From the UHGV virus genome UHGV-0262680: 41,316 bases of DNA; one strand, given 5' to 3'. Position numbers and translations under genes: made by a program. Below the pieces are notes generated by a model, which saw nothing but the letters and a program-made list of their open reading frames with translations, did not search any database and had not been told where the DNA came from. Positions 271-26,742 of the stretch are shown here, piece after piece. Origin of the DNA: a virus. Positions within the stretch are counted from its first letter, which is position 1, and the number at the start of each line of letters is the position of its first letter.

Positions 271-2112
271 TTACTGCTGTGTTGCCTCAGTAGCAAACAG
301 CGGTCTGATGGCATTCGCAGCGTTATTTATCGCTCTTTCATAGGCTGGTGTTCCTGCTTTGGTGTTTGCCAAACGAAGAAGCATATTCCTTGCTGCTTTG
401 GACTCATACAAGCGCATCATTGCACCAAAACCAGCCTCAAGCCCCATTGATACGCCAAGGGTCGCAGTTGCGCCAATCGTCCTTATCCTGTTGGCTTGCG
501 ATTGCCCCGTCTGAGTTACTACATTTGCGGTGTCTGACCTTGCTGTTTGCTGTAGAACTTCATGAAGAGCATCAAGCTCTTTCATGTGCTTTCCAGAAAA
601 AATAGTGTTGTAAATTTCACCGCCTGACTGAGATTTCAGCTTATTAACTTCAGTGATGAACTTGGCTGGAGAGTCCCCGGCCTTTTCCGCTATTTTGCTG
701 ACGTAAGCTGCACGCATAGCATCTTTCCCCTTATCATCCAGTGCGCTCCAGATTCGTTTCACGTCAGATGGTTTTCTGCTTAATACAACGGTATTTATAA
801 GTTCAGGACTGGCTTCACTGCTTGCCTTGTTGAGCTTGTTGGCAATGTTTTTATTAAGCACCTTATTATAAACGTTTGCATAATCGGAATTTGCTTTAAG
901 GTATTTTGCTGCGTCTGATGCACCGAGGTTTTTAGCAACTGCGTTACGAAGGTCTTTTGACATTGCATTCTCTACCATATTGGTAGCTGCTTTTGCCTGG
1001 TTGGGGAAGACCATAGCATCTCCCTGAACATTAGATCTAAATGCTGTTCTGTGCTGACGCAAGAGATCAAACGTAACATCCAAATCAGTTGCAGGGTTTG
1101 CTAATTCTTCACGTAGGTTACGCAAGGATGTAAGCAGGCTTTGATTGGCAGACGTCCCAAGCCGTTCCTGTCTTGCGATCGCTGTATTCAGAGCATTCAT
1201 GGTATTTGTGGTATCAACTGCGGCATTACCCATTTTATTGGTGACGTCATTGATAACAGCGCCAGCGGCATCCTTCCGCCCCCTTAACGTGGTGGTCAGA
1301 GATTTCACCACATCATCAGGGTTGTACTCACCAAAACGGTCAAAATAATTGCTTACCAGCTTACTCCGCGTTGCATATTGCTCTGCTCGCTTTGAGCCCG
1401 TCCCGAGCAAAGCCCCCTCGGCATCCTGAGTAAGGCCGCGAGTGAAAGCATTTTTCGGCGGGATAACATCAGATGTCATTGGTGTCACGCCCATCGATTC
1501 TGATGTGGCAATTTTCTTCGCCACTTCTGGCGCAATATCACCTTTTATAGCCGTTATTCCACGCCCTATTCCCTTTGCTGCTGCGGAAAGAACACCCTGA
1601 GCGGCAAGGTTAACTCCGGCATTTTTAGCTGCATTTTGTGCGAAATCGCCTTTCTGATTTGCGGCCTCTGCCAGCGATCCAATAGCCATGCTTCCTGCCG
1701 TTCCAACTCCTGGAACTAAATACCCACCAATTGTTTCACCGGCTTGTGCGTATGGGTCTGTCGGTTTGTCTACTGGACGATAAACATCATCCAAAACTTT
1801 TGGCCCACCAAGCCCCTGACTGATTGCATTAATCAGACTTGCGCCACCCTGCAATACGTCAAATGGTATGTTTACCAGACCACGACCAGCCTGTTCTGCA
1901 ATTTGCCCTGCACTTTGACCACCAGTGAGCCAATCGCCAGCTTGTTGCATCAATGATGGTTCTTCACGTACTGGTGCATTATTGGCCTGATTAACTGTTT
2001 GTTGCTGAACAACCTGACCAGCAAAATAATCATCAATGGCGGCTCCAATATCTTCCGTGCTCGTACCATCAGGGAAGGTAAATGTCTTACCGTTTGCAGT
2101 TACTTTCATCAT
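271..2112 (-). CDS. P22 gp16-like ejection (internal virion) protein, 613 aa
   Basis: Size and order match the P22 7-20-16 ejection gene set (about 229/471/609 aa). The ATG overlaps the upstream stop in an ATGA junction at 2109-2112. The protein is Ala/Gln/Asn-rich, as ejection proteins are. Confidence 0.6.
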
Positions 2113-3524
2113 TCCACCGTAAATTGAATGACTGATTTTGAGGTATATGATCCAACCTGATTCCGTGGTTCTCCTGAAGGTGTCGAATCTTGTGCTGGCG
2201 CTGCGTCAGTATTCAATGACATATACCGCTTAACGGCACTCCCCAATGATTCACCTTTTTTAACATCCAACCCCAATATCTGACCGCCATTACGCGATTG
2301 TCCAGGATTGCCATTCGCGCTCATCCACTCAGCTTTAAACTCATTAAACTGCGCGTTTCGTCGCTCAAGGTTTGCCATTGCATCAAGCCATCTTGCGACC
2401 GTCTCAGGGTTATCCATGTCAGTTGGCGCACCCTGCCGAACGATCTCAACGTCTTTATCCGTTGCTGGGCCGGGAGGTAGGAATTTAAGAACCTGACTGT
2501 TAACAAGGGCATTTTGGCGGATGCGCAAATCACGCAATGTCGTATCGCTTCCGGTAAGTTTTGCGAACATGTTCTGTGCGTTACCGAACAAACCTGTCGT
2601 TGGTTTTTCTGCTCTGAACTGTTGAGCAAGCGCACTCATAGAATTGGCTGAGTTTGATGATGCTGTGGCATTGTTTACAGCCGTCTCGATGCCTTTTTCC
2701 ATGTTTACTGACAGCTTAGGTGCTTCACTAATCAACTGCTGAGCCTTTTCCTGCGCTTGCTGCATCTTAAACCCGAACTCTTGCTGATCCAGAGCCAAGC
2801 GTTGTGCTGCGATATTGTGCCCAGTCATTGCTGACTGATAGGAAAGGTTTTGCCCTCTCGCCTGAAGTGCTTCACCAGCCTGATTGCTGCGGATTGTCTC
2901 TGCCAGCCTGCCTCGGTCAATTTCACGACCAGCCATCTTATCCTGAACAGCAAACGCCTTTTCTGGTCCAAGCGCACCGAGAGACATAGTAGTCAGCATG
3001 TGTGATAGCTGCTCTGGATTCTGGATACCTGTCTGAATCATCCAGTCAGCATTAGCACCAACGCGATTTAACCTGTCCTTGTTGTCAGTAATGAATTTAC
3101 TGTAGGCTTCCGGTCCCTGAGAAAGAGCGACGTTAGCCCTCATGGCTAAATCGCCCATATCGTTGCGTTGCTGATCATTAAGACCAGAAAACGCCTGTTG
3201 TGCCTGTGCAACAAACGCTGGATTTTCCTGGGCAAACTTAAATAGTCCCGATGGATCACCAGAAGCCCATGCATCAGCGTGAACCTTATTGAACGCACTA
3301 ATCGCTTTCTGTTGCTGTTCCTGATTGTAAATATCAGCAACTCCAGCCAGACCACGTAACGCGGTCAGACCAACGTTATTTGCACCTGAGCGAGCCAACT
3401 CATTGTTTTCGCGGATCAGACCAAGCGTTGCGTTAATGTCGCTTGCCTTTGGCGCATTCTCATTTTGCGTACCGATGCCAGCCAGAAAACCACCAGAATT
3501 AATACCATGTTGCCACGTAGCCAT
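2109..3524 (-). CDS. P22 gp20-like ejection protein, 471 aa
   Basis: 471 aa equals the recalled length of P22 gp20; it sits between the gp7-like and gp16-like ORFs and is Gln/Ala/Asn-rich. Confidence 0.6.
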
Positions 3525-3533
3525 GATTACCCC

Positions 3534-4226
3534 TTAAAACAACGAGCCAAGCAGACCAAGACCGCCGCCGATCGCAGCCCCCCACGGAGTGGATGAACCA
3601 ATTAATTTCGCAAGTCCAGCCCCAGCAATAGCACCAGACGCACCTCCGCCAATAGCAGATTGCATTGCTGATGGTCTGTTGGCATTTGCCGCTGCAAGAG
3701 CCGCACTTTGCTGAGAAATCTGACTCATGTTGTTGGCATATGTCTGCCCGGCGTTTGCCTGACCTTGCAGTGCGCCAAGACCAACATTTGCCAGATTCTG
3801 GTAGTTGTTCATCTGACCAGATAGCCATTGCTGACCAAGCGTTGGTGCGATTGTTGCTAACTGATTACTGGTTGCGGTGGAACCCAATCCACCTGTTGCT
3901 TCCGCTGCAGCCAGACTCTGATAGCGAGCCTGACCTGCAAGGTCTTTATACTGCTGAGAGTTGTAATACTGGTTAAGCGCCTGACCTTGCCCCTCCAGAG
4001 ACGATAAGTTCTCGAGGCTGCCGACATACTTCTCAGCCAGAGGAGTAAACGGTTTCAGGTTGTTCATGATGGTGTTGAACTGCTGATTTTGCAGGTCTGC
4101 GGCATACTTCTGAGCTTCTGCTGCATACTTTGCGCTTTTATCAGAGCTGCCACCTTTCCCGCCTTTTTCATGGCAATAAGGTTCCTCGCCGCGCAGTTTT
4201 CTGCCCAGCTTAAATGCATATAACAT
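3534..4226 (-). CDS. P22 gp7-like ejection protein, 230 aa
   Basis: ATG at 4226-4224 with a GGGAGA ribosome-binding site that now lies 24 bp from the Mu right end. Size and position match P22 gene 7. Confidence 0.6.
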   Translation of the reverse strand: MLYAFKLGRKLRGEEPYCHEKGGKGGSSDKSAKYAAEAQKYAADLQNQQFNTIMNNLKPFTPLAEKYVGSLENLSSLEGQGQALNQYYNSQQYKDLAGQARYQSLAAAEATGGLGSTATSNQLATIAPTLGQQWLSGQMNNYQNLANVGLGALQGQANAGQTYANNMSQISQQSAALAAANANRPSAMQSAIGGGASGAIAGAGLAKLIGSSTPWGAAIGGGLGLLGSLF

Positions 4227-4245
4227 GGCTATCTCCCGTGATTCA

Positions 4246-4250
4246 GGAAT
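4246..4250. repeat. 5-bp target-site duplication GGAAT (left copy)
   Basis: GGAAT immediately outside the Mu right end is repeated at 37939-37943 immediately outside the Mu left end; Mu transposition makes 5-bp duplications. Confidence 0.85.
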
Positions 4251-4330
4251 TGAAGCGGCGCACGAAAAACGCGAAAACGTTTCACGATAAATGCGAAAAC
4301 TTTAATTTTCGTGCTTCAAACGAAACAGCG
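4251..4330. promoter_or_regulatory. Mu right end (attR) with repeated CGAAAA-type transposase-binding motifs
   Basis: Matches the recalled Mu R-end sequence; the motifs CACGAAAAACGCGAAAACG, TTTCACGATAAATGCGAAAAC and TTTTCGTGCTTCAAACGAAA fit R1-R3-type MuA sites. Confidence 0.6.
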
Positions 4331-4350
4331 GCATTAACCGCTGTTTTTTT
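4325..4350 (+). terminator. Intrinsic-terminator-like hairpin with T-run at the Mu right end
   Basis: ACAGCGG-CATTAAC-CGCTGT followed by TTTTTTT on the plus strand, between the mom stop and the element end. Confidence 0.4.
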
Positions 4351-4365
4351 ATTCATAACGTGGGG

Positions 4366-5103
4366 TCACTTCGGGTATGGCTGAACCCTGAATAGTTTGG
4401 TGTTTAGGCGTTTTCTTGCGCGCTTGTTCAGGAACCTGATGTAGCGATATTGATTAAATTTGTGTACCACTGCCCGTTCCTTATTAGCCCGCAAATACTC
4501 GCCTCGTTGACCTCCGCGCTTAATCGCGTTCATCGCTATCTCGTGATACCACTCGCCGTCCAGTTCGTAGAATGTGCTTTCATGGCTGCCAATAAAATCA
4601 AAATTCGACGCCTGATATGCCACGCCAGCACGCCCGCAGCGTTCGTCTGCAAAGGACTGAACCCACTCCACTGACGGATACAGTAACCTGATGGTTTTCA
4701 GCGCGTAGCTGATGGCCCGTGATTCAGAATTGCGGGGCATGTCGTCGTGTAACCACATGCGGTTCAGTTCCATGTAACCCCGGTTATCTGTTTCAAGCAC
4801 GACACGACGCCCTGAGTTGGGATTAAGGGCATATCCCCACTGAAGAACGCCAACCAGATCACGTCCGCTGAATACGCCCAGATGCAGGTAGGAGTTATTC
4901 ACAAAACGGCGGGAATAATGCTTTGTCTGAATGATTGTGCGGGCCAGCCAGCAGGATATGGTTTCAACGCGCAACTCCTTTGAACCATAGCCGACAATCC
5001 GGCCTTCATACTCAATAACGCAGGGTTTTGTCAGAATGCGTGATTTCTTCTCTTTTCCCACAATACAGCTCCGTGGGATGCTCTTTGGCATTCGATATGA
5101 CAA
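4366..5103 (-). CDS. mom: Mom DNA-modification protein
   Basis: Last gene before the right end and overlaps the 3' end of com, as in Mu. The track start at 5103 is TTG; the first ATG is at 5091 (MPKSIPRS...). Confidence 0.65.
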
Positions 5104-5197
5104 TGTAACGTTTACAGCGAGGGCATTTAATTTCTATATGCTTAAAACCTCCTTTAAACAGTAACTTATTGCAGTTTTTACAGCGAACAGAGTCCAT
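5012..5197 (-). CDS. com: Com zinc-finger translational activator of mom, 61 aa
   Basis: ATG at 5197 after AGGGGGAA gives [61 protein letters not shown], carrying the CKNC...CPRC zinc-finger pattern of Mu Com. Confidence 0.8.
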
Positions 5198-5270
5198 GAT
5201 TCCCCCTGTGTAATAACCAGATACGACCACCCGGAGGGCTGGGGATATTTAACCACACATGATGTAAAAC

Positions 5271-5298
5271 GACGATCGATATGATGGTATCGATCGTC
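5271..5298. promoter_or_regulatory. Perfect 11-bp inverted repeat with two GATC sites upstream of com-mom
   Basis: GACGATCGATA-TGATGG-TATCGATCGTC; the GATC sites are at 5274-5277 and 5292-5295, about 75-100 bp upstream of the com ATG. Confidence 0.45.
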
Positions 5299-5337
5299 AT
5301 AATCTATACAAAACGCTTAATTATTAACCTTTTTGAG

Positions 5338-5808
5338 TCAGCTTTCTGCGGCACTCTGAGAAAGAGGCTCTGCTATCAGGGACAGCAGTCTCTCTGTCTG
5401 TTTTCTGTTTTCGAGGGTAATTGCGCAATCCCGTTTCACCTCCTCTGCATATAATCTGACACTTTCCGCACTTTTTTGTATCTGCATTGCAATCTCTTCG
5501 AACTTTTTAAGAGATTCAGGGCGCAAATCTGCATCTGTCACCGACAAAAAATCGTTAAGCGAACCGTCCTGTGAATCTTCATAAACGCGAATGATGCCGA
5601 TTTCTGAAAGGCGCTGTGCGCTCTGTGTCAGGCGAACACTGTACACGCCCGGCAGAACGGGGAAGTCGTACTCCCCGCTCTGTGTAGTGACGTGGCTGAA
5701 AACACCTTTCAGAATCCCTGCACGGTTGTGCAGGGAGGTCAGCGTGATGGTTGTGCCGCCCAGCGGTTCTCCTGTGGGCGTTTTAATCACACCTTTAAGC
5801 TGCGGCAT
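5338..5808 (-). CDS. Truncated lambda-Stf-like side-tail-fibre N-terminal domain ORF, about 156 aa (likely gene remnant)
   Basis: From the ATG at 5808: MPQLKGVIKTPTGEPL...IRVYEDSQDGSLNDFL..., resembling the lambda Stf N-terminus (MAVKISGVLKDGTGKP...ITVYEDSQPGTLNDFL). It stops before any fibre shaft or tip and overlaps the end of the tfa gene by 14 bp. Confidence 0.55.
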   Translation of the reverse strand: MPQLKGVIKTPTGEPLGGTTITLTSLHNRAGILKGVFSHVTTQSGEYDFPVLPGVYSVRLTQSAQRLSEIGIIRVYEDSQDGSLNDFLSVTDADLRPESLKKFEEIAMQIQKSAESVRLYAEEVKRDCAITLENRKQTERLLSLIAEPLSQSAAES

Positions 5809-6325
5809 CGGGATGCTCCGGCCAGCTGATGGCATTAAGGGAGGCTTCATCAGTAACGGCGCTTAAATCCAGCGCTTTTACCGCTTTGATATACGCCATC
5901 CACTGCGCAAGACGAGCTTTGTCGTCATCACTGATGACGCCCAGCTCCAGCTCGGTTTTCCAGTCGGAGGTGATGTCCTTTGCTTCAGTCAGCAGATGCT
6001 GGCGTTGTTTTTCTGCCAGTTGCGAATAATCAACAGGAACCGGCAGCACTTCGCCGTCTTTGTAATACCAACTGGCTTCAATGCCAAAGCCTTCCGGCAG
6101 TTCATCAACTTCCACAATGGTGAAGCCTGCCGGATAAAGACGGGACACGTCTTCTGCCATTGAATAAATCACGCCGCTTTCAGGGTGAATGCACAATTTG
6201 TATCTCTTCGTGAATTTGTCCATGGATTCATAAAAATCCTGGCCGTCTTCACTGCGGAAATACTGAATGTTTTCACCATAAGGCATCTCTTTCGGGTAAT
6301 AACGCGTGACGTTTCTGAGTTCCAT
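5795..6325 (-). CDS. Tail-fibre assembly protein (Mu U / Tfa-like), 176 aa
   Basis: ATG at 6325 preceded by TAAGGAG; starts MELRNVTRYYP, the typical Tfa N-terminus, and sits directly downstream of the fibre gene. Confidence 0.7.
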   Translation of the reverse strand: MELRNVTRYYPKEMPYGENIQYFRSEDGQDFYESMDKFTKRYKLCIHPESGVIYSMAEDVSRLYPAGFTIVEVDELPEGFGIEASWYYKDGEVLPVPVDYSQLAEKQRQHLLTEAKDITSDWKTELELGVISDDDKARLAQWMAYIKAVKALDLSAVTDEASLNAISWPEHPDAAA

Positions 6326-6339
6326 TATTTTCTCCTTAA

Positions 6340-7149
6340 TTAGCCGGATACCGTGCGCCATCCGCCATTGATATAAATCTGAGTTTGTTTGTAATACACG
6401 CCGCCGATGTTATCCGCAGAGCTCTTGCCAGTTTCCTGAACGTTAATACCTGACAAAATACAACCTGAAGGCGCGCGAAATACCCAGGAAATTTCGTTAC
6501 CACCGGGATTGTGAAACACTTCGCTGGTATACCTGAAATCACGTACTGCACCAGAATCGGTGCTGCTGATAGTGATATCGCTACTGCCATCAAACAGCAC
6601 ATTGTTAATCCTGCGGGCCGTCTGAAGCCGGGTTGCCGTTCCGGCGTTGCCGCTGATGTTGTTGATGGTGATATCCGAAGTCAGGGGCATGTTGTTGACC
6701 CTGCGGGTATTCGGTACGGCACGACTGGCTTTATCTACCGTGTCACGTAACGAAAGCGCATCTATAAATTCACCGGCCGTGGTTTTGCCAAGAATACCGC
6801 GCACAAACGCACTGAGTGGCGTTAATGACATTGTGTCTTCGCCCGTAAAATACGGGAACGTATTACTCTGACCGGTTAATCCGGCAATAGCCCCAGCTGA
6901 ACCACTGTTAGTGATAAACAGCTTTTTCAGCGCCGTCATAATCTGGTTGGTCGTGTTTTTGTCCGGTTTGATATTTGCCTGCCGGAGAATTTCCAGCATT
7001 TCGGACTGCACGATATTAAACCAGTCCGGCCCCGGATACGTGGGTGGAATACCGTTCCCTCCTTCGGTGAAATAAAGCGTCGTTTTACTGTATTCAGCCG
7101 CGACGGGCGGCATAACCGGCACGCCAGTATTATTATCAATGTGAAACAT
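6340..7149 (-). CDS. Tail-fibre protein (Mu S-like N-terminus), 269 aa
   Basis: MFHIDNNTGV...PPVAAEY N-terminus of Mu/P1 S-type fibres and a conserved FPYFTGEDTMSLTPLSAFVRGILG motif comparable to P2 H/lambda Stf; AGGAG ribosome-binding site. Confidence 0.7.
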   Translation of the reverse strand: MFHIDNNTGVPVMPPVAAEYSKTTLYFTEGGNGIPPTYPGPDWFNIVQSEMLEILRQANIKPDKNTTNQIMTALKKLFITNSGSAGAIAGLTGQSNTFPYFTGEDTMSLTPLSAFVRGILGKTTAGEFIDALSLRDTVDKASRAVPNTRRVNNMPLTSDITINNISGNAGTATRLQTARRINNVLFDGSSDITISSTDSGAVRDFRYTSEVFHNPGGNEISWVFRAPSGCILSGINVQETGKSSADNIGGVYYKQTQIYINGGWRTVSG

Positions 7150-7191
7150 ATCTGATTATTTCTCCTGATATTGTGTATACAGAGATATTTA

Positions 7192-8250
7192 TTATTCAGT
7201 AGCGCTCCTTGCCTGATTAAACAACTCCGCTGTAAAAGTCAGCTCACCCTTAGCGAAGGGAGTGTTCCCTCCTGGTTGAGTCATAAAACTCTGTGAGACA
7301 GTCGTCCAGCTGTTTGTGTCGCTTTGTACGCCATTCTCTGTAATCGTTGCGCCTGCATGGCTGCCATTTTTCACTTTCCAGGCCAGGCGGTTATTGGGGG
7401 CATCAGCACCGCGGTAAGTGACCGAGGCCATAACGGCCACAACATCACTGTTGCTGTTATCCACCGCACCAAACGTGGCCTGTGCGGCATTCAGGGACGG
7501 CGAGAGCATCAGATATCCGGCCTCGCTGTCAGAGGTGTTCAGCCCCGTGACAATATCTTTATTCAGTGAGTTTTTGGCGCTTCCACCGGTAAATGCCGTT
7601 ACCGGGCTGTATCTGACCTCAATGCTTCCGAGCAGGGCGGGTTCTGCACTATTATTTCTACCGTATGTCACTGTTCCACAGTACATATCACCCAGCATTA
7701 ACGTGCCGGATGCACCCGATGAAAAAATATTGTTACCACCACCAATACTCACCTGAATTTTGTCAGTCCGGTCATCTGGTACATAAAACGATGTATTTCC
7801 AACTAATGAGCGGTTGCAGTACAGACTGGCTGAGACATAGCCGTTTTCGTTTCGCGTTGCGAAAATTTCATAGTAATAACTGGCTGCTTCATCAGGATAC
7901 GGGGTTGTAAATGAATAGCCATTAATCCTGATGTGGGATGGCGAAGATGAATATTTCTTTCCCGCACTTAATGTCAGACGAAATCCCAGCTGTACAGCTG
8001 AGGATTTTAAGTCCGGAAGTGTGCTGTACAGTGTGACATATGAGGGTGTCGTAAAAATCAGCCCCGTTCTTTCTACAGTATTTACGGCCTGAGTGCCACG
8101 ACAGACGGATGTTACAGAACCGGACATATCATTGATAAGCGTGACACCGTTTTCGTTCAGTGCTGAAATAATATTTGTTGAATAATAGTTCTCGCACAAT
8201 CCCTCATTCGCCGGAATTTGTCGAAAACTTTCGAGTTTAATAATATTCAA
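7192..8250 (-). CDS. Hypothetical Ser/Thr/Gly/Asn-rich virion protein, 352 aa, probable TTG start
   Basis: Long ORF between the gp48-like baseplate gene and the fibre gene; AAGGAG lies 7 nt upstream of the TTG at 8250. No family recognised from memory. Confidence 0.45.
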   Translation of the reverse strand: MNIIKLESFRQIPANEGLCENYYSTNIISALNENGVTLINDMSGSVTSVCRGTQAVNTVERTGLIFTTPSYVTLYSTLPDLKSSAVQLGFRLTLSAGKKYSSSPSHIRINGYSFTTPYPDEAASYYYEIFATRNENGYVSASLYCNRSLVGNTSFYVPDDRTDKIQVSIGGGNNIFSSGASGTLMLGDMYCGTVTYGRNNSAEPALLGSIEVRYSPVTAFTGGSAKNSLNKDIVTGLNTSDSEAGYLMLSPSLNAAQATFGAVDNSNSDVVAVMASVTYRGADAPNNRLAWKVKNGSHAGATITENGVQSDTNSWTTVSQSFMTQPGGNTPFAKGELTFTAELFNQARSATE

Positions 8251-8273
8251 AGCGGCTCTCCTTTTATTTTATG

Positions 8274-9248
8274 TCATTCGGACGTGACCACAGCAAAATG
8301 CAGTCCCGGGTGATTAATCAATAACGGTTCACGGGTTCTGCTGGCTGTCTGCAACTGCATACTGTTAACCGGTACGGGGGAGCGGGTCCTGTATCCCGTC
8401 TGCAACTGTGCGCTGTTCATGGTCATGGGGTCCGTTGTCGGCAGACCTGAGTGCAATTGCGCCCTGCTGAGTACCAGTGGTTCTGCCGTCGGACGGGCGG
8501 CATAAAAGTTAATCCGGTTAATTGTCAGCGGCTTACCTGTCAGTGCCGGAACAAGTGCAAAATGCAGCCCTGCACAGTTAACCGTTAACGGTTCTTCTGG
8601 TTTATATCCGGCCTGAATCTGTATGCGATTAACGGATAATGGCGGACCGGACACAGCCTCATCGTTACCATCGGTGTAAAAAAACTCATACCCTGTTCCA
8701 CCCATGCGGTAATTTTTCAGGAGACATTCCAGCTCGCGGGTGCGTCCGCTGATTAATGGTGTCATGACATCATCAACACAGGTAAAACGCCCGGCGTCGC
8801 TGTCCTGAACCTCCACTTTCAGCAGCCAGCGATACCGCGCCGGATGCAGCGGGTACATGCAGTCGCGCAGGCAGTGATGCGGCAGAACGGCCGTCACCTT
8901 GATGGTGAAGCCCAGCGCCGCAGCAGCGGCTTCAATCTGCCAGGTTGCCAGCCCACCCTTGCGGCGGTATTTCTCCACCACGGCACGACGGCGGGCTTCC
9001 GTTGTGGTGGCGGCAATTCCGCATTCCGGCAGCGCCAGATACTGCTCCCACTCCGGCAGCAGCTGGAGCGTGGTTTCCGGGCGCATCTCCACATGCAGAC
9101 GCGAGGCGTCGTATTCAATGCGGGTTAAACGCGCTGCAAGCGCCCTTAAAAAACGGTTTAAATCCGCGTCGTTATCACGCGGCCATGCTTTACCCCGTGG
9201 CATGACCTGTTGCAGTGCGGTCAGCCATTCCGTCACGCTGTGAGCCAT
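8274..9248 (-). CDS. Baseplate protein (Mu gp48 / P2 gpI-like) with a C-terminal tandem-repeat extension, 324 aa
   Basis: The N-terminal ~200 aa resemble the small baseplate protein family; the C-terminus carries seven ~17-aa repeats of the form P-L-x-(V/I)-N-x-x-x-L. Confidence 0.55.
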   Translation of the reverse strand: MAHSVTEWLTALQQVMPRGKAWPRDNDADLNRFLRALAARLTRIEYDASRLHVEMRPETTLQLLPEWEQYLALPECGIAATTTEARRRAVVEKYRRKGGLATWQIEAAAAALGFTIKVTAVLPHHCLRDCMYPLHPARYRWLLKVEVQDSDAGRFTCVDDVMTPLISGRTRELECLLKNYRMGGTGYEFFYTDGNDEAVSGPPLSVNRIQIQAGYKPEEPLTVNCAGLHFALVPALTGKPLTINRINFYAARPTAEPLVLSRAQLHSGLPTTDPMTMNSAQLQTGYRTRSPVPVNSMQLQTASRTREPLLINHPGLHFAVVTSE

Positions 9249-10309
9249 GTCACCTCCCCGATGGTGATAAGCTCATCCACATCACTGGTGGTGTCTTCCC
9301 CGATGTTGAGAAAGTAATCTGTAATGCCGGATGTCATACCGATGGCCGTGCGCAGCGAGGACACCGGCAGCATCTGACCAGGGGCCAGCGTTTTCTGTAA
9401 TGCGGTCAGGTTTGCCCGGACGGCGTTCCTGTTCGCCTGGCCGTCCGGTGTCAGACGGATGGACAGGTCGACTTTCTTCAGCCTGACCTGAACCGGCCAG
9501 ACCTCAATGCCGCCCGGTTTGCCCACCATAACCCCAGTGGCCGGGTGTTTGTGGCAGAACAGATACTGCTCCATTGTCTTCAGGTCTTTGCGGGTCGGTA
9601 CAATATCTTCACGGTCATCGTAAAGCCATGCCAGTCCGACCGTGCCGGGGCCGTGCCACGCATCCCACGCCCACGCGCGGCTGACGCCAGCCACTTCGCG
9701 AGCCCAGATGACGTAATCATGCAGAGCACCGCCCACCGGGGGATTGCGACGCACATACAGCAGACGGTCCAGCAGCTCCGCGATGGATTCAGTGTCTGCG
9801 CCACCGGTGATGCCACCTTCAGCCACCACGCCTGCACTGGCCGTTCCGGGCAGCGGAGATAACAGGGTCAGCACGGCACCGGCAGCAAGATTACCCGCCA
9901 CCCCGGCTTCTTCAGCCTGCACAATGACGGTGACCTCGCCGTCCCGTACCTCACCGGATGTGAGCACCTGGTACACCTGATTCGTGTCGGACTGCATCCG
10001 TGTTTCAGCCGGAAGGAGAGACTGACTGGTGAAGGTCACCGGCCCGCTGGCAAAGGTGGCCTGTTTGCGGATAACCCCTTCATACGTTGCTGTTTTGATA
10101 ATGGTTTCATCATCAGACGTGGCGGACGGGATTATCTGGTCCTTAATCCAGCTCTGATGGTCGTATAAATCCCGGACCTGACTGCTGAATGACACGTTCA
10201 GCGCTTGCTCAACACTGACAGGCGGCAGCTTTTGCAGGCCGAGTTCATACGCAATATCTTTTTCGCCGTCGGCAATCAGTTTGCCCAGCGTGGGGATTTC
10301 ATACGGCAT
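9233..10309 (-). CDS. Baseplate J-like protein (Mu gp47-like), 358 aa
   Basis: Size and position in the baseplate block; ATG at 10309. Confidence 0.65.
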   Translation of the reverse strand: MPYEIPTLGKLIADGEKDIAYELGLQKLPPVSVEQALNVSFSSQVRDLYDHQSWIKDQIIPSATSDDETIIKTATYEGVIRKQATFASGPVTFTSQSLLPAETRMQSDTNQVYQVLTSGEVRDGEVTVIVQAEEAGVAGNLAAGAVLTLLSPLPGTASAGVVAEGGITGGADTESIAELLDRLLYVRRNPPVGGALHDYVIWAREVAGVSRAWAWDAWHGPGTVGLAWLYDDREDIVPTRKDLKTMEQYLFCHKHPATGVMVGKPGGIEVWPVQVRLKKVDLSIRLTPDGQANRNAVRANLTALQKTLAPGQMLPVSSLRTAIGMTSGITDYFLNIGEDTTSDVDELITIGEVTWLTA

Positions 10310-10751
10310 TAATGGTGGCCTCCCATCGACGGGTGATTTCGATTGTGAGCGTGGTTTTGTCCGGGCGGGTTAACACCACCTGAAAGGCAATACAGTCAGG
10401 GACGATGATTCTGGCCGTGACAGTGGCGTTACGGGCGTAACCGGCCCGCAGCAGCGGTTGCATGGACAGCCGTGCGTAATCTTCCACGCGCAGGCGGACA
10501 TCTTCCGTCAGCTTTTCACGCTCAAGCAGCCACAGGCGGGAACCCCACGAAAAATCGCTGTATGTGTCGCCCGGCCAGCCACGCGGGTCGCCGGAACCAT
10601 CAGGGATGACATCATCGTCATCAGCGCGGGCATCGGTGAAAAGGCAGATAAGAACCTGAGTGACCAGCCCCTCATCCCGTGAGAGGCCGTTATGGGTGAC
10701 GGTGATGTCACCCCGTGAGAGCATGTTATTCCAGCGGATTCCTGTCGTCAT
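10299..10751 (-). CDS. Baseplate protein (Mu gp46-like), 150 aa
   Basis: Position and size in the Mu baseplate order. Confidence 0.55.
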   Translation of the reverse strand: MTTGIRWNNMLSRGDITVTHNGLSRDEGLVTQVLICLFTDARADDDDVIPDGSGDPRGWPGDTYSDFSWGSRLWLLEREKLTEDVRLRVEDYARLSMQPLLRAGYARNATVTARIIVPDCIAFQVVLTRPDKTTLTIEITRRWEATINAV

Positions 10752-11284
10752 ACGGGCGGTGATGTCTTCTCATTGTCGCCGTCCTTATGAATATGATTGC
10801 TGAAAGATTTACCGTTGATGGTGACATCTTCAGTAAATTCACAGGGACCGACGAATTTCATTTGTTTACCGATAATATTCAGCAATTCGTCGGCGGTGAG
10901 ATTTACCGTTGTCCCTGAAACGTCTAATTGTTCCCCTGTTATTTCAATAACGCCGTTTTCCTTCAGGGTGATGTGTGATTTTCCGTCCCGGTGATACAGC
11001 CGGACGTCGCCGGGAGACAGGCCTTTAGGGCGACATCGCTTGTCCTCCACTGCGATGGCAACCAGCCCGTCACGCCGTCCGCCAACGGCCAGCACTATGG
11101 CTTCTGAACCTTCCGGCGGAACGGAAGTAAAACCGTAATTCTGGAAGCGTTCCACGTCGTCATCGGTGGCATCTGCCAGCGTCTGGATTTGCAGGTTCTG
11201 CCGCTCCAGACTGTCAGACACCATGCGGACAATGGCACGGTCAACCATCAGCCGCAGACGGCGGGTAATTGCGCTTAATCCCAT
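10748..11284 (-). CDS. Baseplate spike/assembly protein (Mu gp45 / gpV-like), 178 aa
   Basis: Position and size; start and stop overlap the neighbouring genes. Confidence 0.55.
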   Translation of the reverse strand: MGLSAITRRLRLMVDRAIVRMVSDSLERQNLQIQTLADATDDDVERFQNYGFTSVPPEGSEAIVLAVGGRRDGLVAIAVEDKRCRPKGLSPGDVRLYHRDGKSHITLKENGVIEITGEQLDVSGTTVNLTADELLNIIGKQMKFVGPCEFTEDVTINGKSFSNHIHKDGDNEKTSPPV

Positions 11285-12348
11285 GTGACCACCGCTTTTG
11301 CTGATTTCTTCGTTTTCACTTTCATTTCCGGCATGTCCAGTGATTCAGGCGGAACCAGCGCCAGAACCGTTATCCGCCCCTGTGCACCATCCGTCCAGGT
11401 CACCCCGGATATCAACCAGGTGGTTTTCAGGTTCTGAATACTGTCGTCGATATCAACAAGGCGGTTGGTCTGCCACAGCGGGCCGCTGTCGCCCTGTTCG
11501 CGCCAGCCTGCCACCGTGATTTCCGTCGTGCGGGCCTCTCCCAGCATCCGGGCTTTGAACCATTCCCCGCGAATGCTGGCTCCACCCACGGTCAGACTGT
11601 CTTCATTGACCAGAATGCGCGGGCGGTAACGGTTAATTTCCGGGTCTTCGGTGATGTACTGGCGACCGCCCACCATCGAGGCAGGCTGGCTGTCCCACAG
11701 TTTGCCACCGGCACTGGTGGTGCCCTTGATGATGTACTGACTGTTACGCTCCCGCCAGCTGAAGCGCCCACGGGCGGCGAGGATATTTTTTCCCAGCACC
11801 AGTGAGACACCTGCGCGAACGGAAGAGGCGCGGGTGATAATCAGGTTACCCCCTCCGTCAGACGTCAGCAGAACGCCGCGCTGTTTTGCCAGCCGGTCGA
11901 GCAGTTCAAAGCCCGTTTCACCCTGTTCCAGAACGACAGACGCAAACGCCTCCCCGGTCGGGGTTTCCGTGATGACGGTTATCCCGAACGGGCGGCAGAC
12001 ATCAGCCGCCACCTGTTCAAGCCGCACGCCTTTCCATTTCCCGGACGAATGCACCACAGAGCAGTCCACCAGGTCACCGGTTTTGTCGCGCCCCATGACG
12101 CGAATCTCCACGTTTTCTGCGTCATAGCTGGGAATAAAATCATCGATATACCCCGTCAGCACGGTATCCGCGCCCAGCCTGACCGTGCAGGGTTGCCCCT
12201 CACGAATCACGCGCGGTGCCGCCGCTGACCAGCGGGTTGTCACACTGAGATCAAACTCACCGGCAATCGCCTTCAGGGAACGACTGACGGACATTTCCGT
12301 CCAGCCTTCCCACAATTTGCCGTCAACGGTAAGAATCACGGAGCCCAT
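11275..12348 (-). CDS. Baseplate hub protein (Mu gp44-like), 357 aa
   Basis: Position between the P-like gene and the baseplate genes. Confidence 0.55.
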   Translation of the reverse strand: MGSVILTVDGKLWEGWTEMSVSRSLKAIAGEFDLSVTTRWSAAAPRVIREGQPCTVRLGADTVLTGYIDDFIPSYDAENVEIRVMGRDKTGDLVDCSVVHSSGKWKGVRLEQVAADVCRPFGITVITETPTGEAFASVVLEQGETGFELLDRLAKQRGVLLTSDGGGNLIITRASSVRAGVSLVLGKNILAARGRFSWRERNSQYIIKGTTSAGGKLWDSQPASMVGGRQYITEDPEINRYRPRILVNEDSLTVGGASIRGEWFKARMLGEARTTEITVAGWREQGDSGPLWQTNRLVDIDDSIQNLKTTWLISGVTWTDGAQGRITVLALVPPESLDMPEMKVKTKKSAKAVVTWD

Positions 12349-13622
12349 CAGTCGGTAATCTCCACAGGTTGCGTTGGCAGTATGAATGACGGATGGCGCA
12401 GGCGGTTACGCTGCACGATTTCATCCCGTCGGCTGGTGTCACCATGCTCGCGCCATGCCAGCAATGCGGCAGATGTGGTTGTGGTCAGCGTCACCTGCCG
12501 GGTTTCCGGCAGACGGGCGGCACGCTCGCGGGCATCCGTAATCACGGCCTGCCGTAAATCACGCAGCGTTCGCCACAATGCCCGCTGGTTATTTTCCACC
12601 GCCGCGACCGACTGCTCATGCAGTTCAGCCGCCAGCGCGTCACCGGCAGATAATGCCGCATCACTGGTATCGAACGTCATCGAGGCCACGGCACTGGCCT
12701 GTCCCAGCAGGGTTTCCAGCACAACCACCTGGCGGAAGTCGTCAATGTTCTTCTGCAGGCTGTCAGATACCGGCTGATAATCCGCTGACAGCCCGATGGC
12801 AAAGCCGATTTCACCGTCTGCCACGCTGCCGGGCTTCACGGTGATATCTTCCGGCAATGCGCCAGTGGCAACCTGTCGGGCGCGTTCTCCGGCCCACTGG
12901 TTGCGTAATGTCGTGTAAACCGCCAGTGCTTCGGGTGATTCCGTCACCAGATCAACCACGCCGTCAATGAGCGAGGACAGCTCACTGACCAGACGACCCG
13001 GCGTGGCAATAATGGTTCCGGCCATCTCCTTAAAATGGTTCAGCCTGTCCATCCACTGATTCAGTGCCGTCGGTAACGTGGGCAGGTTGGCCACAAGGTT
13101 TTCCATATCGGCCAGAAAGCTGTCGGCCATCTCACCCAGCCCGTCAGGTGCACCGAACCAGTTGCCATCGTCAATGGCCGCTTTTACCGCATCAATGCCC
13201 GTCAGCACTTCCTGCTGCGTGTTATCCGCCGCAGACGGGAACAGACGCTCGCCTGCCTCAAACACTTCAAATGTGACATACGCAATGCCGTCTTCCTCCG
13301 TGCTGAGGCGATGGGTGACCTTGCCAACCTGTACGGTCTGTATCCCGAACCACGGATGGATAAGCTCGCCGGGGCCGGGGGTATTGAGCGCATCTAAAAG
13401 GGCGTTTAAATCAGCCTGGAAGTTGCTACCCAACAGCTTCGCGTTAATCTGCTGTTGCCCCGGAACGGCCCCGTTATCATCCGTCCAGGCGGTTTCACGC
13501 CGGGGATAAGCACGGGGAATGGCACGACGGCCACCTGTGCCTTCCGTATCCACCAGAAAAAAAGGGACACCGCGAAACGAGGCGTCGCGCAGCCCGTCCC
13601 ATTTGCCTTTGCTTGTTGTCAT
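12348..13622 (-). CDS. Mu gp43 (P)-like DNA-circularisation / tail protein, 424 aa
   Basis: Immediately downstream of the tape-measure gene, as in Mu. Confidence 0.55.
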   Translation of the reverse strand: MTTSKGKWDGLRDASFRGVPFFLVDTEGTGGRRAIPRAYPRRETAWTDDNGAVPGQQQINAKLLGSNFQADLNALLDALNTPGPGELIHPWFGIQTVQVGKVTHRLSTEEDGIAYVTFEVFEAGERLFPSAADNTQQEVLTGIDAVKAAIDDGNWFGAPDGLGEMADSFLADMENLVANLPTLPTALNQWMDRLNHFKEMAGTIIATPGRLVSELSSLIDGVVDLVTESPEALAVYTTLRNQWAGERARQVATGALPEDITVKPGSVADGEIGFAIGLSADYQPVSDSLQKNIDDFRQVVVLETLLGQASAVASMTFDTSDAALSAGDALAAELHEQSVAAVENNQRALWRTLRDLRQAVITDARERAARLPETRQVTLTTTTSAALLAWREHGDTSRRDEIVQRNRLRHPSFILPTQPVEITD

Positions 13623-15478: not shown

Positions 15479-15564
15479 GCTGTTTCTCCAGTTGCTTTAT
15501 CAGGCGGAACAGCTGCCGCAGGGGCAGCTGTTCCAGGTACTGAATACTGAATCTCTGGGACAGG

Positions 15565-15960
15565 TTAACCAGCAGGTTCATCAGTGCCGCCGCCAGCGGC
15601 ATCAGTTCGCCCCCGCGTTGCCACCTCCTCAAGCATCTCATCCAGCGCGGCGGCTTTCGTGCTGATAAGCTCAAGGTCTGCCGGGTGGAGCATTCGCAGC
15701 TGTTTCATGTCCAGCGGGCCGGGGATATTACCGATTGACGCAACCTGACGGCGCATCATCTCCAGCCCCATCAGCACTTCCGAGCAGTAAGCCACCGCCT
15801 TTCCGTTCCCGCCCATGACGACGCGTTCTGCGGCCAGTTGCGCATCAATCACGTCACTGGCGGTCAGTTCGCGCAGTTTCACGGTTTTATGCAGGGTTTC
15901 ATCTGCCGTGCCTTTGCCGGTCAGAAGCCCGTGTTTCAGTTCAAATTCCATTGCGGCCAT
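15565..15960 (-). CDS. Tail assembly chaperone, 131 aa, with an overlapping alternate-frame ORF (15465-15674)
   Basis: Sits between the tube and tape-measure genes; a second-frame ORF overlaps its 3' end, the usual arrangement for chaperone frameshift products. Confidence 0.45.
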   Translation of the reverse strand: MAAMEFELKHGLLTGKGTADETLHKTVKLRELTASDVIDAQLAAERVVMGGNGKAVAYCSEVLMGLEMMRRQVASIGNIPGPLDMKQLRMLHPADLELISTKAAALDEMLEEVATRGRTDAAGGGTDEPAG

Positions 15961-15961
15961 G

Positions 15962-16318
15962 TCACACCTTCACGCATTTTTCACCGATAAAGTTCGCACT
16001 GATGGTGCCGGAATCCTCGTCCAGCTCCGCCGGGTTATCCGTGGCTGAACCCGTCATCATGTAGTTCAGGCCGTTGTCGCCGTAGAACATCACCGTGACG
16101 TCTTCCCAGCTGCTGATTTCAATCACGTCCATATCCGCTGCTGCCGCAATGGTCACCTTGATGGACGGCGAGGCCATCTTGCTGGAGATGCCCCAGACCT
16201 TGCCGCCGCCCATATGCTGGGTGCGGCTGAAGCCGCCCGGATTCAGCGTGGATTTCCCCTCGGTTTTAATTTCGCGGCCATTCACGCGAATGGTCGCCAT
16301 GCCAAGAATTTTTGCCAT
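15962..16318 (-). CDS. Tail tube protein (Mu M-like), 118 aa
   Basis: 118-aa ORF immediately downstream of the sheath gene; ATG at 16318. Confidence 0.7.
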   Translation of the reverse strand: MAKILGMATIRVNGREIKTEGKSTLNPGGFSRTQHMGGGKVWGISSKMASPSIKVTIAAAADMDVIEISSWEDVTVMFYGDNGLNYMMTGSATDNPAELDEDSGTISANFIGEKCVKV

Positions 16319-16327
16319 GCGGCCCCC

Positions 16328-17803: not shown

Positions 17804-18003
17804 TATTTTTTCCCTCTGGTTTTGTTGTTATTTTTCGGAAGTGTGGTTATTTCCACATCTCCCTCGGCTTCACGGCGCAGCCAGTAAGCGCAGACATCGA
17901 GACGTTCCCCTTCCGGGGATAAATGCGCGCCATCCGGTTTACGGACACGAACGCTTTCCCGCGCTGGCTTAATCAGTTTCTGTTCCATCGTCACCCCGTA
18001 CAT
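17803..18003 (-). CDS. Small hypothetical protein, 66 aa
   Basis: ATG at 18003; lies between the head-completion genes and the sheath gene. Confidence 0.35.
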   Translation of the reverse strand: MYGVTMEQKLIKPARESVRVRKPDGAHLSPEGERLDVCAYWLRREAEGDVEITTLPKNNNKTRGKK

Positions 18004-19556: not shown

Positions 19557-19867
19557 CAGCCTTTCTCCGCTTCCCGGACAATCAGATTCGGTTCAGCCAT
19601 CAGGCGGGTGGCAACCGCAGCGGTCACCGCCACATCCTCACCGGCATGTGACCAGAAACGGCCACAGCGCCAGAACCCGTTTTCAGACACGGCCCGGACG
19701 TTCAGCCGGACAGGGGCGTCACCCTGTACAGCAGTCGGGGCTTCAGCCGGACGTGGTTCATTCGCCTGACCGTCAGCCACAATAACGTCTGCCAGCGGTG
19801 CCGGGTTTTCCTGTGCTGCGCTGTTCTTTGCGGCTTTCGCGCCTTTGGTTCCTGCTTTTTCACTCAT
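19556..19867 (-). CDS. Small hypothetical head protein, 103 aa
   Basis: ORF immediately downstream of the major head gene. Confidence 0.35.
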   Translation of the reverse strand: MSEKAGTKGAKAAKNSAAQENPAPLADVIVADGQANEPRPAEAPTAVQGDAPVRLNVRAVSENGFWRCGRFWSHAGEDVAVTAAVATRLMAEPNLIVREAEKG

Positions 19868-26740: not shown

Positions 26741-26742
26741 GC

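What the first reader, a model, noticed from the sequence alone, without database searches (positions are those of the whole stretch)
5338..7149. Tail-fibre locus lacks the Gin invertase and G-segment; a truncated Stf-like N-terminal ORF sits in their place
In Mu an invertible G-segment and gin separate the constant part of S from com-mom. Here a complete S-like fibre gene (269 aa) and a tfa gene are followed, on the same strand, by an ORF encoding only a lambda-Stf-like tail-attachment N-terminal domain, which abuts the com-mom regulatory region. No recombinase and no inverted fibre-tip copy are present. This looks like a recombination scar from fibre-module exchange and implies a fixed host range.
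Basis: partly seen in the sequence, partly recalled or inferred. Interest (0 to 1): 0.5.

Follow-up and report, generated by a model that had tools for sequence, protein, structure and literature searches.

The report
Truncated second tail-fibre gene in Mu-like prophage
The 156-codon ORF is the leftover front end of a second tail-fibre gene that is intact in sister E. coli Mu-like prophages; it is an ordinary deletion remnant, and nothing suggests that a lost Gin/G-segment switch once sat at this position.

Summary
On the minus strand lie a 269-aa Mu-S-like fibre gene (7149-6340), a tfa/U-like chaperone (6361-5795) and a 156-codon ORF (5808-5338). That ORF encodes only a lambda-Stf-type attachment domain plus a short helix and ends 140 nt before com. 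The window has no Gin homologue, no gix site and no inverted fibre copy.

All ten relatives I inspected, eight of them Mu-like prophages of this lineage, lack gin and a G segment. Between tfa and com-mom they carry a full-length, hypervariable Stf-type second fibre (301-1037 aa), usually with a DUF4376 chaperone. Here everything beyond codon 156 is gone, about 1.4-2.4 kb less than in four relatives. NCBI's PGAP annotation pipeline already calls the same sequence a pseudogene.

The truncation haplotype (about 5086-5550) is nearly identical across otherwise 6-12% diverged prophages. I read this as a single event later moved by recombination. It occurs in 23 of 5,426 complete E. coli genomes, at several insertion sites, so the phage tolerates it. 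It always co-occurs with an extended gp48 and a 352-aa lectin-like protein, which may substitute for the lost fibre.

Verdict: a gene remnant of modest interest. A residual function for the stub is not excluded.

The parts
5338..5808 (-). Truncated second-fibre gene: 156 codons encoding the Stf-type collar (attachment) domain, a linker and a helix of about 59 residues.
   Evidence: PF08400 at E 9e-25. PDB 9e7m lambda Stf residues 4-91 at E 7e-11, and XM1 collar spike 7kjk at E 2e-4. AF2 model: beta-sandwich at 3-75, a single helix at 97-155, pLDDT 72. PGAP marks the identical sequence as a pseudogene missing its C-terminus. Relatives are 301-1037 aa. The ATG overlaps the tfa stop by 14 nt, with GGAG upstream.
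5324..5445 (-). Allele-specific stalk stub plus deletion junction. These are the last ~35 codons and the stop, with no DNA match in any full-length relative.
   Evidence: blastn finds this segment only in truncated alleles. The peptide has coiled-coil character and resembles the stalks of other alleles only weakly. No parental full-length allele was found.
5198..5323 (-). Conserved com-mom control region with clustered GATC (Dam) sites. It begins right after the TAA (5323-5321) that corresponds to the stop of the last cassette gene in relatives.
   Evidence: Alignment with Mu and five relatives and the sequence itself. Identity to relatives is 89-91%.
5795..6361 (-). Tail fibre assembly chaperone (Mu U / lambda Tfa type) for the S-like fibre.
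   Evidence: PF02413 at E 6.6e-21 and phrog_136 at E 3e-56. It is 26-31% identical to Mu U/U'.
6340..7149 (-). Complete short S-like tail fibre, 269 aa.
   Evidence: Residues 1-81 match Mu S (5yvq, E 3.6e-21) and residues 209-269 match a short tail fibre tip (9cuy, E 9e-13). phrog_1833 is matched to its end. Six of the relatives have the same 269-aa length; two others have 253 and 259 aa.
7192..8250 (-). 352-aa protein predicted as a concanavalin-A-like / carbohydrate-binding jelly-roll fold; candidate accessory receptor-binding protein. It is present only in prophages that carry the truncated fibre.
8274..9248 (-). gp48/YmfQ baseplate wedge protein with a ~130-aa C-terminal extension made of seven ~17-aa repeats.
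   Evidence: PF10076 covers residues 11-191 only. Relatives are 194 aa. Repeats are listed. In Mu, gp48 carries the fibre-docking loop (PMC11915804).
5012..5197 (-). com, the translational activator of mom.
   Evidence: PF10122 and phrog_13819. It is 73% identical to Mu Com.
4366..5091 (-). mom, the DNA modification gene.
   Evidence: PF25680 at E 2e-74. It is 96% identical to Mu Mom.
4246..4250 (.). 5-bp target-site duplication GGAAT at the prophage right end; the prophage starts at 4251. Its partner is at 37939-37943.
   Evidence: Sequence. The Mu-type end sequence was located. Homology to Mu-like prophages in other genomes starts at 4251.

Best explanation
The window carries a 33.7-kb Mu-type transposable prophage (4251-37938). 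Its host-recognition locus is a co-directional tandem of fibre cassettes rather than Mu's invertible G segment.

In sister E. coli prophages the order is gp47, gp48, a short S-like fibre, a U-like chaperone, a second Stf-type fibre, then usually a DUF4376 chaperone or an SGNH hydrolase, then com-mom. The second fibre has a lambda-Stf/XM1-gp40-type N-terminal collar domain followed by a hypervariable stalk and tip. By analogy with the solved Mu baseplate, the S-like fibre should dock on gp48 through its Mu-S-like N-terminus. By analogy with Ur-lambda and XM1, the second fibre should attach elsewhere on the tail or neck through its collar domain. Such virions would then carry two fibre types at once.

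In the window's prophage a single deletion removed the second fibre beyond codon 156, together with any downstream chaperone. The break lies just upstream of the intact mom control region. What remains is the collar domain, a linker and a helix of about 59 residues. The stub is probably still transcribed with the late tail operon and translated by coupling to tfa. It lacks the long stalk, the receptor-binding tip and the chaperone, so it cannot be a fibre. It is best regarded as a gene remnant.

The phage remains viable, because the S-like fibre is intact. This lineage also has an extended gp48 and a 352-aa lectin-like protein that may provide the accessory receptor-binding function.

Shown: the anatomy, the truncation relative to homologues, the absence of the inversion machinery, and the single-haplotype pattern. 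Inferred: the attachment sites, expression of the stub, its lack of function, and substitution by the 352-aa protein.
For: 1. Ten relatives have a full-length gene with the same N-domain at the same position: L002-L007, L016 and L018 (Mu-like prophages) and L023 and L024 (metagenome contigs whose context I did not inspect). Domain content of the relatives is, and the alignment shows conservation ending at about residue 115.
2. DNA homology to the relatives runs 4251-5323 and 5446-7150. Between these, 122 bp in the window replaces 2498 bp in L002. The corresponding gaps against L003, L005 and L006 are 1.6-2.4 kb.
3. PGAP independently calls the identical sequence 'incomplete; missing C-terminus'.
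4. The domain assignment rests on PF08400, PDB 9e7m and 7kjk, and the AF2 model. In Ur-lambda, Stf residues 1-94 form the collar, 92-101 a linker, and the coiled coil starts at 102 (PMC12617516). XM1 gp40 binds the neck through its N-terminal domain (PMC10457771).
5. The event looks single and recent. Across four backbones the block 5086-5550 differs by 0-4 nt, while the flanks differ by 6-12%. Codons 116-156 show zero synonymous differences, against pS 0.12-0.17 in codons 1-115.
6. The truncation is tolerated. The truncated prophage is found at five or more different insertion sites: in a P22-like prophage here, and in an SDR oxidoreductase gene, an FAD monooxygenase gene, next to a NUDIX gene and next to a GH127 gene elsewhere.
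7. There is a precedent. Laboratory lambda has a frameshifted stf, is viable, and Stf is not detected in its virions by mass spectrometry (PMC10721106).
8. No Gin, gix or inverted copies are present.
Against: - No full-length parental allele carrying the same stalk stub (codons ~105-156) was found in complete E. coli genomes, the protein database, species-representative genomes or metagenomes. The deletion endpoints are therefore inferred from non-identical alleles.
- The ORF is intact in every good-quality copy, keeps a Shine-Dalgarno sequence and an overlapping start, and no terminator-like site separates it from tfa. It may well be made.
- pN/pS in the N-domain is 0.14-0.4. This is compatible with constraint, although recombination with functional alleles explains it equally well.
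- The strict co-occurrence with the gp48 extension and the 352-aa module could mean the stub has a role in that architecture.
- One relative (L006) has an Stf-N protein of only 301 aa followed by separate genes, so short N-domain 'adaptor' forms can be functional.
Confidence: 0.75

Rival explanations
1. The stub is functional. The collar domain plus short helix would be retained as a structural ring or plug on the tail or neck, or as an adaptor that works with the extended gp48 and the 352-aa lectin-like protein. On this view the truncation is an adaptive remodelling, not decay.
For: - The ORF is intact in all good copies across four diverged backbones.
- It is translationally coupled to tfa and no terminator precedes it.
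- The truncation haplotype has apparently spread by recombination and is found only with the gp48 extension and the 352-aa module: 4 of 4 truncated backbones against 0 of the 8 full-length prophages whose gp48-to-fibre region I could see.
- In lambda the collar domains alone form a 12-mer ring around the gpV/gpM junction (PMC12617516).
- A 301-aa adaptor-like form exists in L006.
Against: - The block is so young (0-4 differences in ~450 bp) that an intact ORF says nothing about selection.
- N-domain diversity is explained by recombination with full-length alleles.
- In lambda PaPa a much longer N-terminal Stf fragment is not detected in virions (PMC10721106).
- The backbones are not phylogenetically independent, so the association is weak statistically.
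- The AF2 model shows a lone helix with modest confidence, pLDDT 53-73 in the tail.
Confidence: 0.15
2. A Mu-type ancestor with a G segment and gin lost them when a lambdoid stf-tfa module recombined in, and the stub is the scar of that exchange.
For: - The position is equivalent to that of the G(-) half and gin in Mu.
- com-mom and the right end are 88% identical in DNA to Mu, and Mom is 96% identical in protein, so Mu-proper sequence adjoins the stub.
- The N-domain belongs to the family first described in lambdoid prophages.
Against: - No residual gin, gix or inverted Sv'/U' sequence is present.
- Sister prophages carry a complete second fibre and chaperone here, so the truncation happened inside that cassette.
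- The N-domain is at most 34% identical to any Stf in 50,697 phage records.
- The late genes are only 31-38% identical to Mu's. The morphogenetic module is therefore not a recent Mu derivative that would be expected to have had a G segment.
Confidence: 0.06
3. Assembly or sequencing artefact: a collapsed repeat or misjoin produced an apparent truncation.
For: Fibre genes with collagen-like or coiled-coil repeats, such as the L002 collagen repeats, are prone to assembly collapse.
Against: The identical junction is present in 23 independently completed E. coli genomes and in several metagenome assemblies. The stub contains no repeat.
Confidence: 0.01

Closest known systems
Frameshifted stf of laboratory lambda (lambda PaPa versus Ur-lambda)
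   Same: An Stf-type side-fibre gene is inactivated while its N-terminal collar-domain coding part is kept. The phage stays viable because another receptor-binding device remains. The N-domain is the same fold and family (PF08400; 9e7m, E 7e-11; PMC12617516, PMC10721106).
   Different: Here the lesion is a 1.4-2.4-kb deletion that also removes the chaperone, not a 1-bp frameshift. The host virion is a Mu-type myophage, not a siphophage. Protein identity to lambdoid phage Stf proteins is only about 33-34%.
Phage Mu G segment / Gin host-range switch (S-U / S'-U')
   Same: The genomic position is the same, between baseplate gene 48 and com-mom. The first fibre has a Mu-S-like N-terminus and a U-like chaperone. 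com-mom and its GATC-rich control region are conserved.
   Different: There is no invertase, no gix and no inverted alternative fibre tip. Diversity is supplied by a second, separately anchored, co-directional fibre cassette, which is truncated here.
Collar spike protein gp40 of Vibrio myophage XM1
   Same: This is a myophage fibre anchored by a ~100-residue Ig-like N-terminal domain. That domain is detectably homologous to the ORF (7kjk, E 2e-4, residues 3-128; PMC10457771).
   Different: XM1 gp40 is a complete 839-aa trimeric spike bound to the neck. The window ORF stops after 156 residues, and its attachment site is unknown.
Truncated stf/tfa remnants in E. coli cryptic prophages, which PGAP annotates as 'prophage tail fiber N-terminal domain-containing protein, incomplete'
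   Same: Same family, same kind of lesion, same annotation outcome.
   Different: This copy sits in an apparently complete, recently mobile transposable prophage with an intact 5-bp target duplication, not in a decayed cryptic element.

Membership tests
Mu-type invertible G segment / Gin switch | Serine invertase gene (gin/pin/cin/hin family) adjacent to the fibre genes | tested here: not met
   tblastn of Mu Gin against the whole window gives a best E of 1.4. No Y-x-R-[VIL]-S-[TS]-x-x-Q motif occurs in six frames.
Mu-type invertible G segment / Gin switch | Inverted gix crossover sites flanking the segment | tested here: not met
   The gix consensus gives 0 hits at up to 3 mismatches. The longest inverted repeat in 4200-9400 is 28 nt at 71% complementarity.
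Mu-type invertible G segment / Gin switch | Second, inverted set of fibre-tip and chaperone genes (Sv'/U') | tested here: not met
   Self-tblastn of the fibre and tfa, and tblastn of Mu S'/U', find only the single minus-strand copies.
Mu-type invertible G segment / Gin switch | Constant Mu-S-type N-terminal fibre part that docks on gp48 | tested here: met
   Residues 1-81 of the 269-aa ORF match Mu S 5yvq at E 3.6e-21. The docking itself is inferred from PMC11915804.
Stf-type side/collar fibre (PF08400 N-terminal domain fibres) | N-terminal collar/attachment domain | tested here: met
   PF08400 at E 9e-25, above the gathering score. 9e7m at E 7e-11. AF2 beta-sandwich at 3-75.
Stf-type side/collar fibre (PF08400 N-terminal domain fibres) | Long trimeric stalk and C-terminal receptor-binding region | tested here: not met
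   The ORF ends at residue 156 after a ~59-residue helix. Homologues are 301-1037 aa.
Stf-type side/collar fibre (PF08400 N-terminal domain fibres) | Dedicated downstream chaperone (Tfa/DUF4376) | tested here: not met
   Only 140 nt of mom control region lie between the stop and com. Five of the eight inspected prophages with a full-length fibre carry a DUF4376 gene there.
Caudovirales tail fibre assembly protein (Mu U / lambda Tfa) | Caudo_TAP domain, located immediately downstream of its fibre gene | tested here: met
   PF02413 at E 6.6e-21 and phrog_136 at E 3e-56. It is 26-31% identical to Mu U/U'.
com-mom operon | Com zinc-ribbon gene overlapping a Mom gene, preceded by a GATC-clustered control region, at the right end of a Mu-type genome | tested here: met
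   PF10122 and PF25680. Mom is 96% and Com 73% identical to Mu's. The GATC sites align with Mu's. The C-protein site and OxyR binding were not tested.
Gene remnant / pseudogene | Shorter than all intact homologues, with loss of essential domains | tested here: met
   156 aa against 301-1037 aa. PGAP flags it as a pseudogene.
Gene remnant / pseudogene | Absence of purifying selection or function | tested here: inconclusive
   Codons 116-156 show 0 synonymous and at most 1 nonsynonymous difference, so there is too little divergence. Expression and incorporation cannot be tested with these tools.

The most novel reading that the evidence does not exclude
This E. coli Mu-like lineage would have replaced Mu's either/or inversion switch with two fibre systems displayed at once: an S-type fibre on gp48 and a collar-anchored Stf-type fibre. 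In the window's sub-lineage the collar fibre would then have been swapped for a different accessory receptor-binding device, a repeat-extended gp48 carrying a 352-aa lectin-like protein. On this reading the 156-aa collar stub is deliberately retained and spread by recombination, because the collar ring itself is needed structurally or because a full-length collar fibre is incompatible with the new device.
Probability: 0.12. Interest if true: 0.5.

Novelty: new member of a known kind. Interest (0 to 1): 0.25.

Why it matters
As a truncated fibre gene it matters little. Such remnants are common in prophages, and the standard annotation pipeline already flags this one.

The context is more useful than the stub:
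- A group of Mu-type transposable prophages in E. coli, about 1% of complete genomes, achieves receptor diversity without a G-segment invertase. It uses a tandem second-fibre slot bounded by two conserved recombination anchors, the collar domain and the mom control region.
- This slot holds very different cargo in different strains: collagen-like fibres, fibre-repeat fibres, an SGNH esterase, or nothing.
- For host-range prediction and for engineering Mu-like vectors, this slot and the alternative gp48-extension/lectin-like module are the places to look.

Tried and rejected
- **Parental allele.** I searched for a full-length allele containing the stalk stub and found none. The searches were blastn of 5300-5470 against 5,426 E. 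coli genomes (truncated copies only), the 5.8-billion-protein search (mostly short or partial proteins), a species-representative genome scan (nothing) and a metagenome scan (only truncated copies or unrelated stalks). The exact deletion endpoints remain inferred.
- **1-bp indel.** Most of the other genomes differ from the window by one base in this region. I first suspected a frameshift in the ORF. In the copy I aligned (L008) it is an A5/A6 run downstream of the stop codon and does not touch the ORF.
- **dN/dS test of function.** This was uninformative. The tail has no synonymous differences, and the N-domain differences are best explained by recombination.
- **Isolated phages.** No isolated phage in INPHARED carries this fibre arrangement. 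The best Stf N-domain match is about 34% identical, and the late region has only a 72.5% partial match to a Klebsiella phage.
- **Terminator or promoter scan.** I looked for signals that would isolate the stub from the tail operon. There is no convincing minus-strand signal between tfa and the stub or after it.
- **Artefact hypothesis.** Rejected, because the junction recurs in many independent assemblies.
Full report
**What is in the window**

All relevant genes are on the minus strand. Reading 5' to 3', they are:

| Coordinates | Product | Main evidence |
|---|---|---|
| 10309-9233 | gp47 | 37% identical to Mu gp47 |
| 9248-8274 | gp48/YmfQ homologue, 324 aa | PF10076 covers residues 11-191 only |
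| 8250-7192 | 352-aa ORF | no Pfam family |
| 7149-6340 | 269-aa fibre | see below |
| 6361-5795 | tail fibre assembly protein | PF02413; PGAP start at 6325 |
| 5808-5338 | 156-codon ORF | PF08400 'prophage tail fibre N-terminal', E 9e-25 |
| 5197-5012 | com | PF10122, phrog_13819 |
| 5091-4366 | mom | PF25680 |

The 269-aa protein is a complete fibre. Its first 81 residues match the solved Mu fibre protein S (E 3.6e-21) and its last 60 match a solved short-tail-fibre tip. By tblastn, Mu S residues 1-125 are 38% identical and Mu U/U' 26-31% identical. Mom is 96% identical and Com 73%.

**Absence of the inversion machinery**

- Mu Gin gives no tblastn hit in the 41-kb window; the best E is 1.4.
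- No serine-recombinase catalytic motif is present in any frame.
- The gix consensus has no match within three mismatches.
- The longest inverted repeat in 4200-9400 is 28 nt at 71% complementarity, which is chance level.
- The fibre and tfa genes have no second copy on either strand.

**What the 156-codon ORF is**

Residues 3-89 align with the lambda Stf N-terminal chain solved in the Ur-lambda tail (9e7m, E 7e-11). Residues 3-128 align with the collar spike protein of Vibrio myophage XM1 (7kjk, E 2e-4).

In Ur-lambda, Stf residues 1-94 form a beta-sheet 'collar' domain. Twelve copies ring the gpV/gpM junction. Residues 92-101 are a linker, and the trimeric coiled coil starts at residue 102 (PMC12617516). 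In XM1 the homologous ~100-residue domain binds the neck (PMC10457771).

An AlphaFold2 model of the window ORF shows a beta-sandwich at residues 3-75 and a single long helix at 97-155, with mean pLDDT 72. The ORF therefore encodes the attachment domain, the linker and about 59 residues of stalk, and nothing else.

**What relatives have at this position**

The 5.1-kb fibre/mom region is 99.4-99.9% identical in 22 complete E. coli genomes. PGAP annotates the ORF there as 'prophage tail fiber N-terminal domain-containing protein; incomplete; missing C-terminus'.

More distant prophages of the same lineage are about 91% identical in gp47/gp48 and 89-94% in com-mom. Between tfa and com they carry a full-length gene that begins with the same domain:

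- 755 aa with collagen repeats, plus a DUF4376 gene, in PSS-15.
- 605 aa in STEC388, SA53-3 and KFu019.
- 749 aa plus DUF4376 in 06-00048.
- 301 aa followed by a 100-aa ORF and an SGNH/GDSL hydrolase in STEC719.

Metagenome contigs hold alleles of 1024 and 1037 aa. None of the eight annotated Mu-like prophages has gin or an inverted segment. The same tandem (fibre, tfa, Stf-type fibre, DUF4376) also occurs in a non-Mu myophage-type prophage next to ipaH. The alignment shows near-invariance up to about residue 115, then unrelated stalks.

The state seen in every sampled relative with an intact cassette is thus a two-fibre cassette. The window's ORF is a truncated copy of the second fibre.

**Anatomy of the lesion**

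Against PSS-15, DNA homology runs 4251-5323 (94%) and 5446-7150 (90%). Between these, 122 bp in the window replaces 2498 bp in PSS-15. Against other relatives the missing stretch is 1.6-2.4 kb.

The 3' boundary is sharp. Homology resumes within a few nucleotides of the TAA at 5323-5321, which corresponds to the stop codon of the last cassette gene in relatives. It continues into the mom control region, whose GACGATCGA...ATCGATCG motifs align with Mu's Dam-site cluster. The ORF's own TGA (5340-5338) lies 15 nt upstream of that point.

The last ~35 codons are found only in truncated alleles. They look like coiled-coil stalk and resemble other stalks only faintly, for example KQ-TERLL...AAES in P0018. 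No full-length parent with this stalk turned up anywhere I could search. The deletion is therefore inferred from non-identical alleles and has not been observed directly.

**Age and spread**

The junction segment occurs in 23 of 5,426 complete E. coli genomes. The N-domain of this type occurs in 48.

Truncated alleles sit in at least four backbones with different first fibres: 269, 331 and 356 aa, and gp48 of 324 or 341 aa. Between these backbones, the tfa, the 5' part of the N-domain, the 352-aa gene and mom differ by 6-12%. The block from about 5086 to 5550 differs by only 0-4 nucleotides. Codons 116-156 have no synonymous difference, against pS 0.12-0.17 in codons 1-115.

This pattern fits one recent truncation whose haplotype has been moved between prophages by homologous recombination. 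It also means that the intact reading frame carries no information about selection.

The truncated prophage is found at five or more different Mu-type insertion sites, so it has been mobile since the event:

- in a P22-like prophage in this window;
- in an SDR oxidoreductase gene;
- in an FAD monooxygenase gene;
- next to a NUDIX gene;
- next to a GH127 gene.

Losing the second fibre is evidently tolerated.

**Is the stub made, and does it do anything?**

Its ATG overlaps the tfa stop by 14 nt and has GGAG eight nucleotides upstream. No terminator-like site on the minus strand separates it from tfa. Transcription and coupled translation are therefore likely, though this is an inference.

The closest precedent argues against function. 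Laboratory lambda carries a frameshifted stf and is viable, and no Stf protein is detected in its virions by mass spectrometry (PMC10721106). I put about 0.75 on 'non-functional remnant' and about 0.15 on a residual structural or adaptor role.

**An associated difference upstream**

Relative to the full-length relatives, the window has a 1.5-kb insertion (7151-8671). It adds a ~130-aa C-terminal extension of seven 17-residue repeats to gp48, plus the 352-aa ORF.

All four truncated backbones have this module. It is absent from all eight full-length prophages whose gp48-to-fibre region I could see.

In Mu, gp48 carries the loop on which the fibre docks (PMC11915804). A reasonable but untested idea is that the extended gp48 displays this lectin-like protein as an accessory receptor-binding device. 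That would make the collar fibre dispensable or incompatible.

**Comparison with known systems**

The locus works like a conventional fibre + chaperone set plus a dead second fibre. It is not a member of the Gin/G-segment class, since three of its defining features were tested and not met. The stub belongs to the PF08400 family by its N-domain, but it fails the features that make a fibre: stalk, tip and chaperone. The nearest analogue is the frameshifted stf of lambda PaPa.

**Verdict**

The ORF is a truncated remnant and there is no switch. However, it is a deletion within a lineage-typical second-fibre cassette. It is not a scar of Gin/G-segment replacement by a lambdoid module. Novelty is low, as a new member of a known kind, and interest is about 0.25. 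The mildly interesting part is the lineage's G-segment-free, two-slot fibre architecture and the mutually exclusive accessory modules.

Noticed in passing
window 4246-4250 and 37939-37943; flanks 271-4226 and 37931-41028: The Mu-like prophage (4251-37938, 33.7 kb) is inserted inside a P22-like prophage, between gene 14 (head morphogenesis) and gene 7 (ejection protein). It has a perfect 5-bp target duplication, GGAAT. The flanks encode P22-type gp7, gp20 and gp16 on one side and gp14, the tail needle gp26, gp10 and an HNH endonuclease on the other. The insertion replaces the last codons of gene 14. None of the 5,426 complete E. coli genomes shares this insertion site.
   Followed up: yes
window 7192-8250 and 8274-8670: A 352-aa hypervariable protein is confidently predicted as a concanavalin-A-like / carbohydrate-binding jelly-roll fold. 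gp48 carries a C-terminal extension of seven ~17-aa P-L-x-[VI]-N repeats. Both are seen only in prophages that have the truncated second fibre, and the module also occurs in an unrelated prophage in ETEC B7A (L010).
   Followed up: partly
window 1-41316 (composition); 30400-34000 and 4251-5187 (Mu homology): The prophage is a mosaic. The early region and com-mom are 84-88% identical in DNA to Mu/D108/SfMu at 46-51% GC. The morphogenetic genes (~9000-29000) are 52-61% GC (mostly 56-60%) and, for the baseplate and fibre proteins compared, only 31-38% identical to Mu proteins. The fibre region (~5300-8500) is again ~48% GC. No isolated phage in the collection matches the late region beyond a 72.5% partial hit to a Klebsiella phage.
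   Followed up: partly
L006 2573-5299 (E. coli STEC719): In one relative the second-fibre slot holds a 301-aa Stf-N protein, a 100-aa ORF, a 456-aa SGNH/GDSL hydrolase and a 50-aa ORF, with no long fibre. This suggests a collar-anchored esterase (possibly an O-antigen deacetylase).
   Followed up: no
L017 2787-6699 (E. coli RMDEC465): The same tandem (fibre, tfa, Stf-N-type fibre, DUF4376) occurs in a non-Mu contractile-tail prophage (DUF2612 baseplate) next to an ipaH effector gene. The two-fibre cassette is therefore shared between different myophage backbones.
   Followed up: no
L012 2050-6471 and L014 785-5206 (CP028768 and CAJGWE010000013): In these rearranged copies the Mu-type transposase, ner-like and repressor-like genes lie directly next to tfa and the 156-aa stub. 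This implies large internal deletions or inversions of the prophage. One genome (CP028768) carries both this remnant and a complete copy.
   Followed up: no
window 41232-41316: The window ends with the start of an ORF (MTKNTRFSPEVRQRAVRMVLESQGEYDS...). From memory it resembles an IS3-family OrfA, which would mean an IS element in the P22-like prophage. I did not test this.
   Followed up: no
window 5326-5331: An A5/A6 length polymorphism lies just downstream of the stub's stop codon. Most other genomes with this junction differ from the window by one base over 5300-5470, and in the copy I aligned (L008) the difference is an extra A here.
   Followed up: yes
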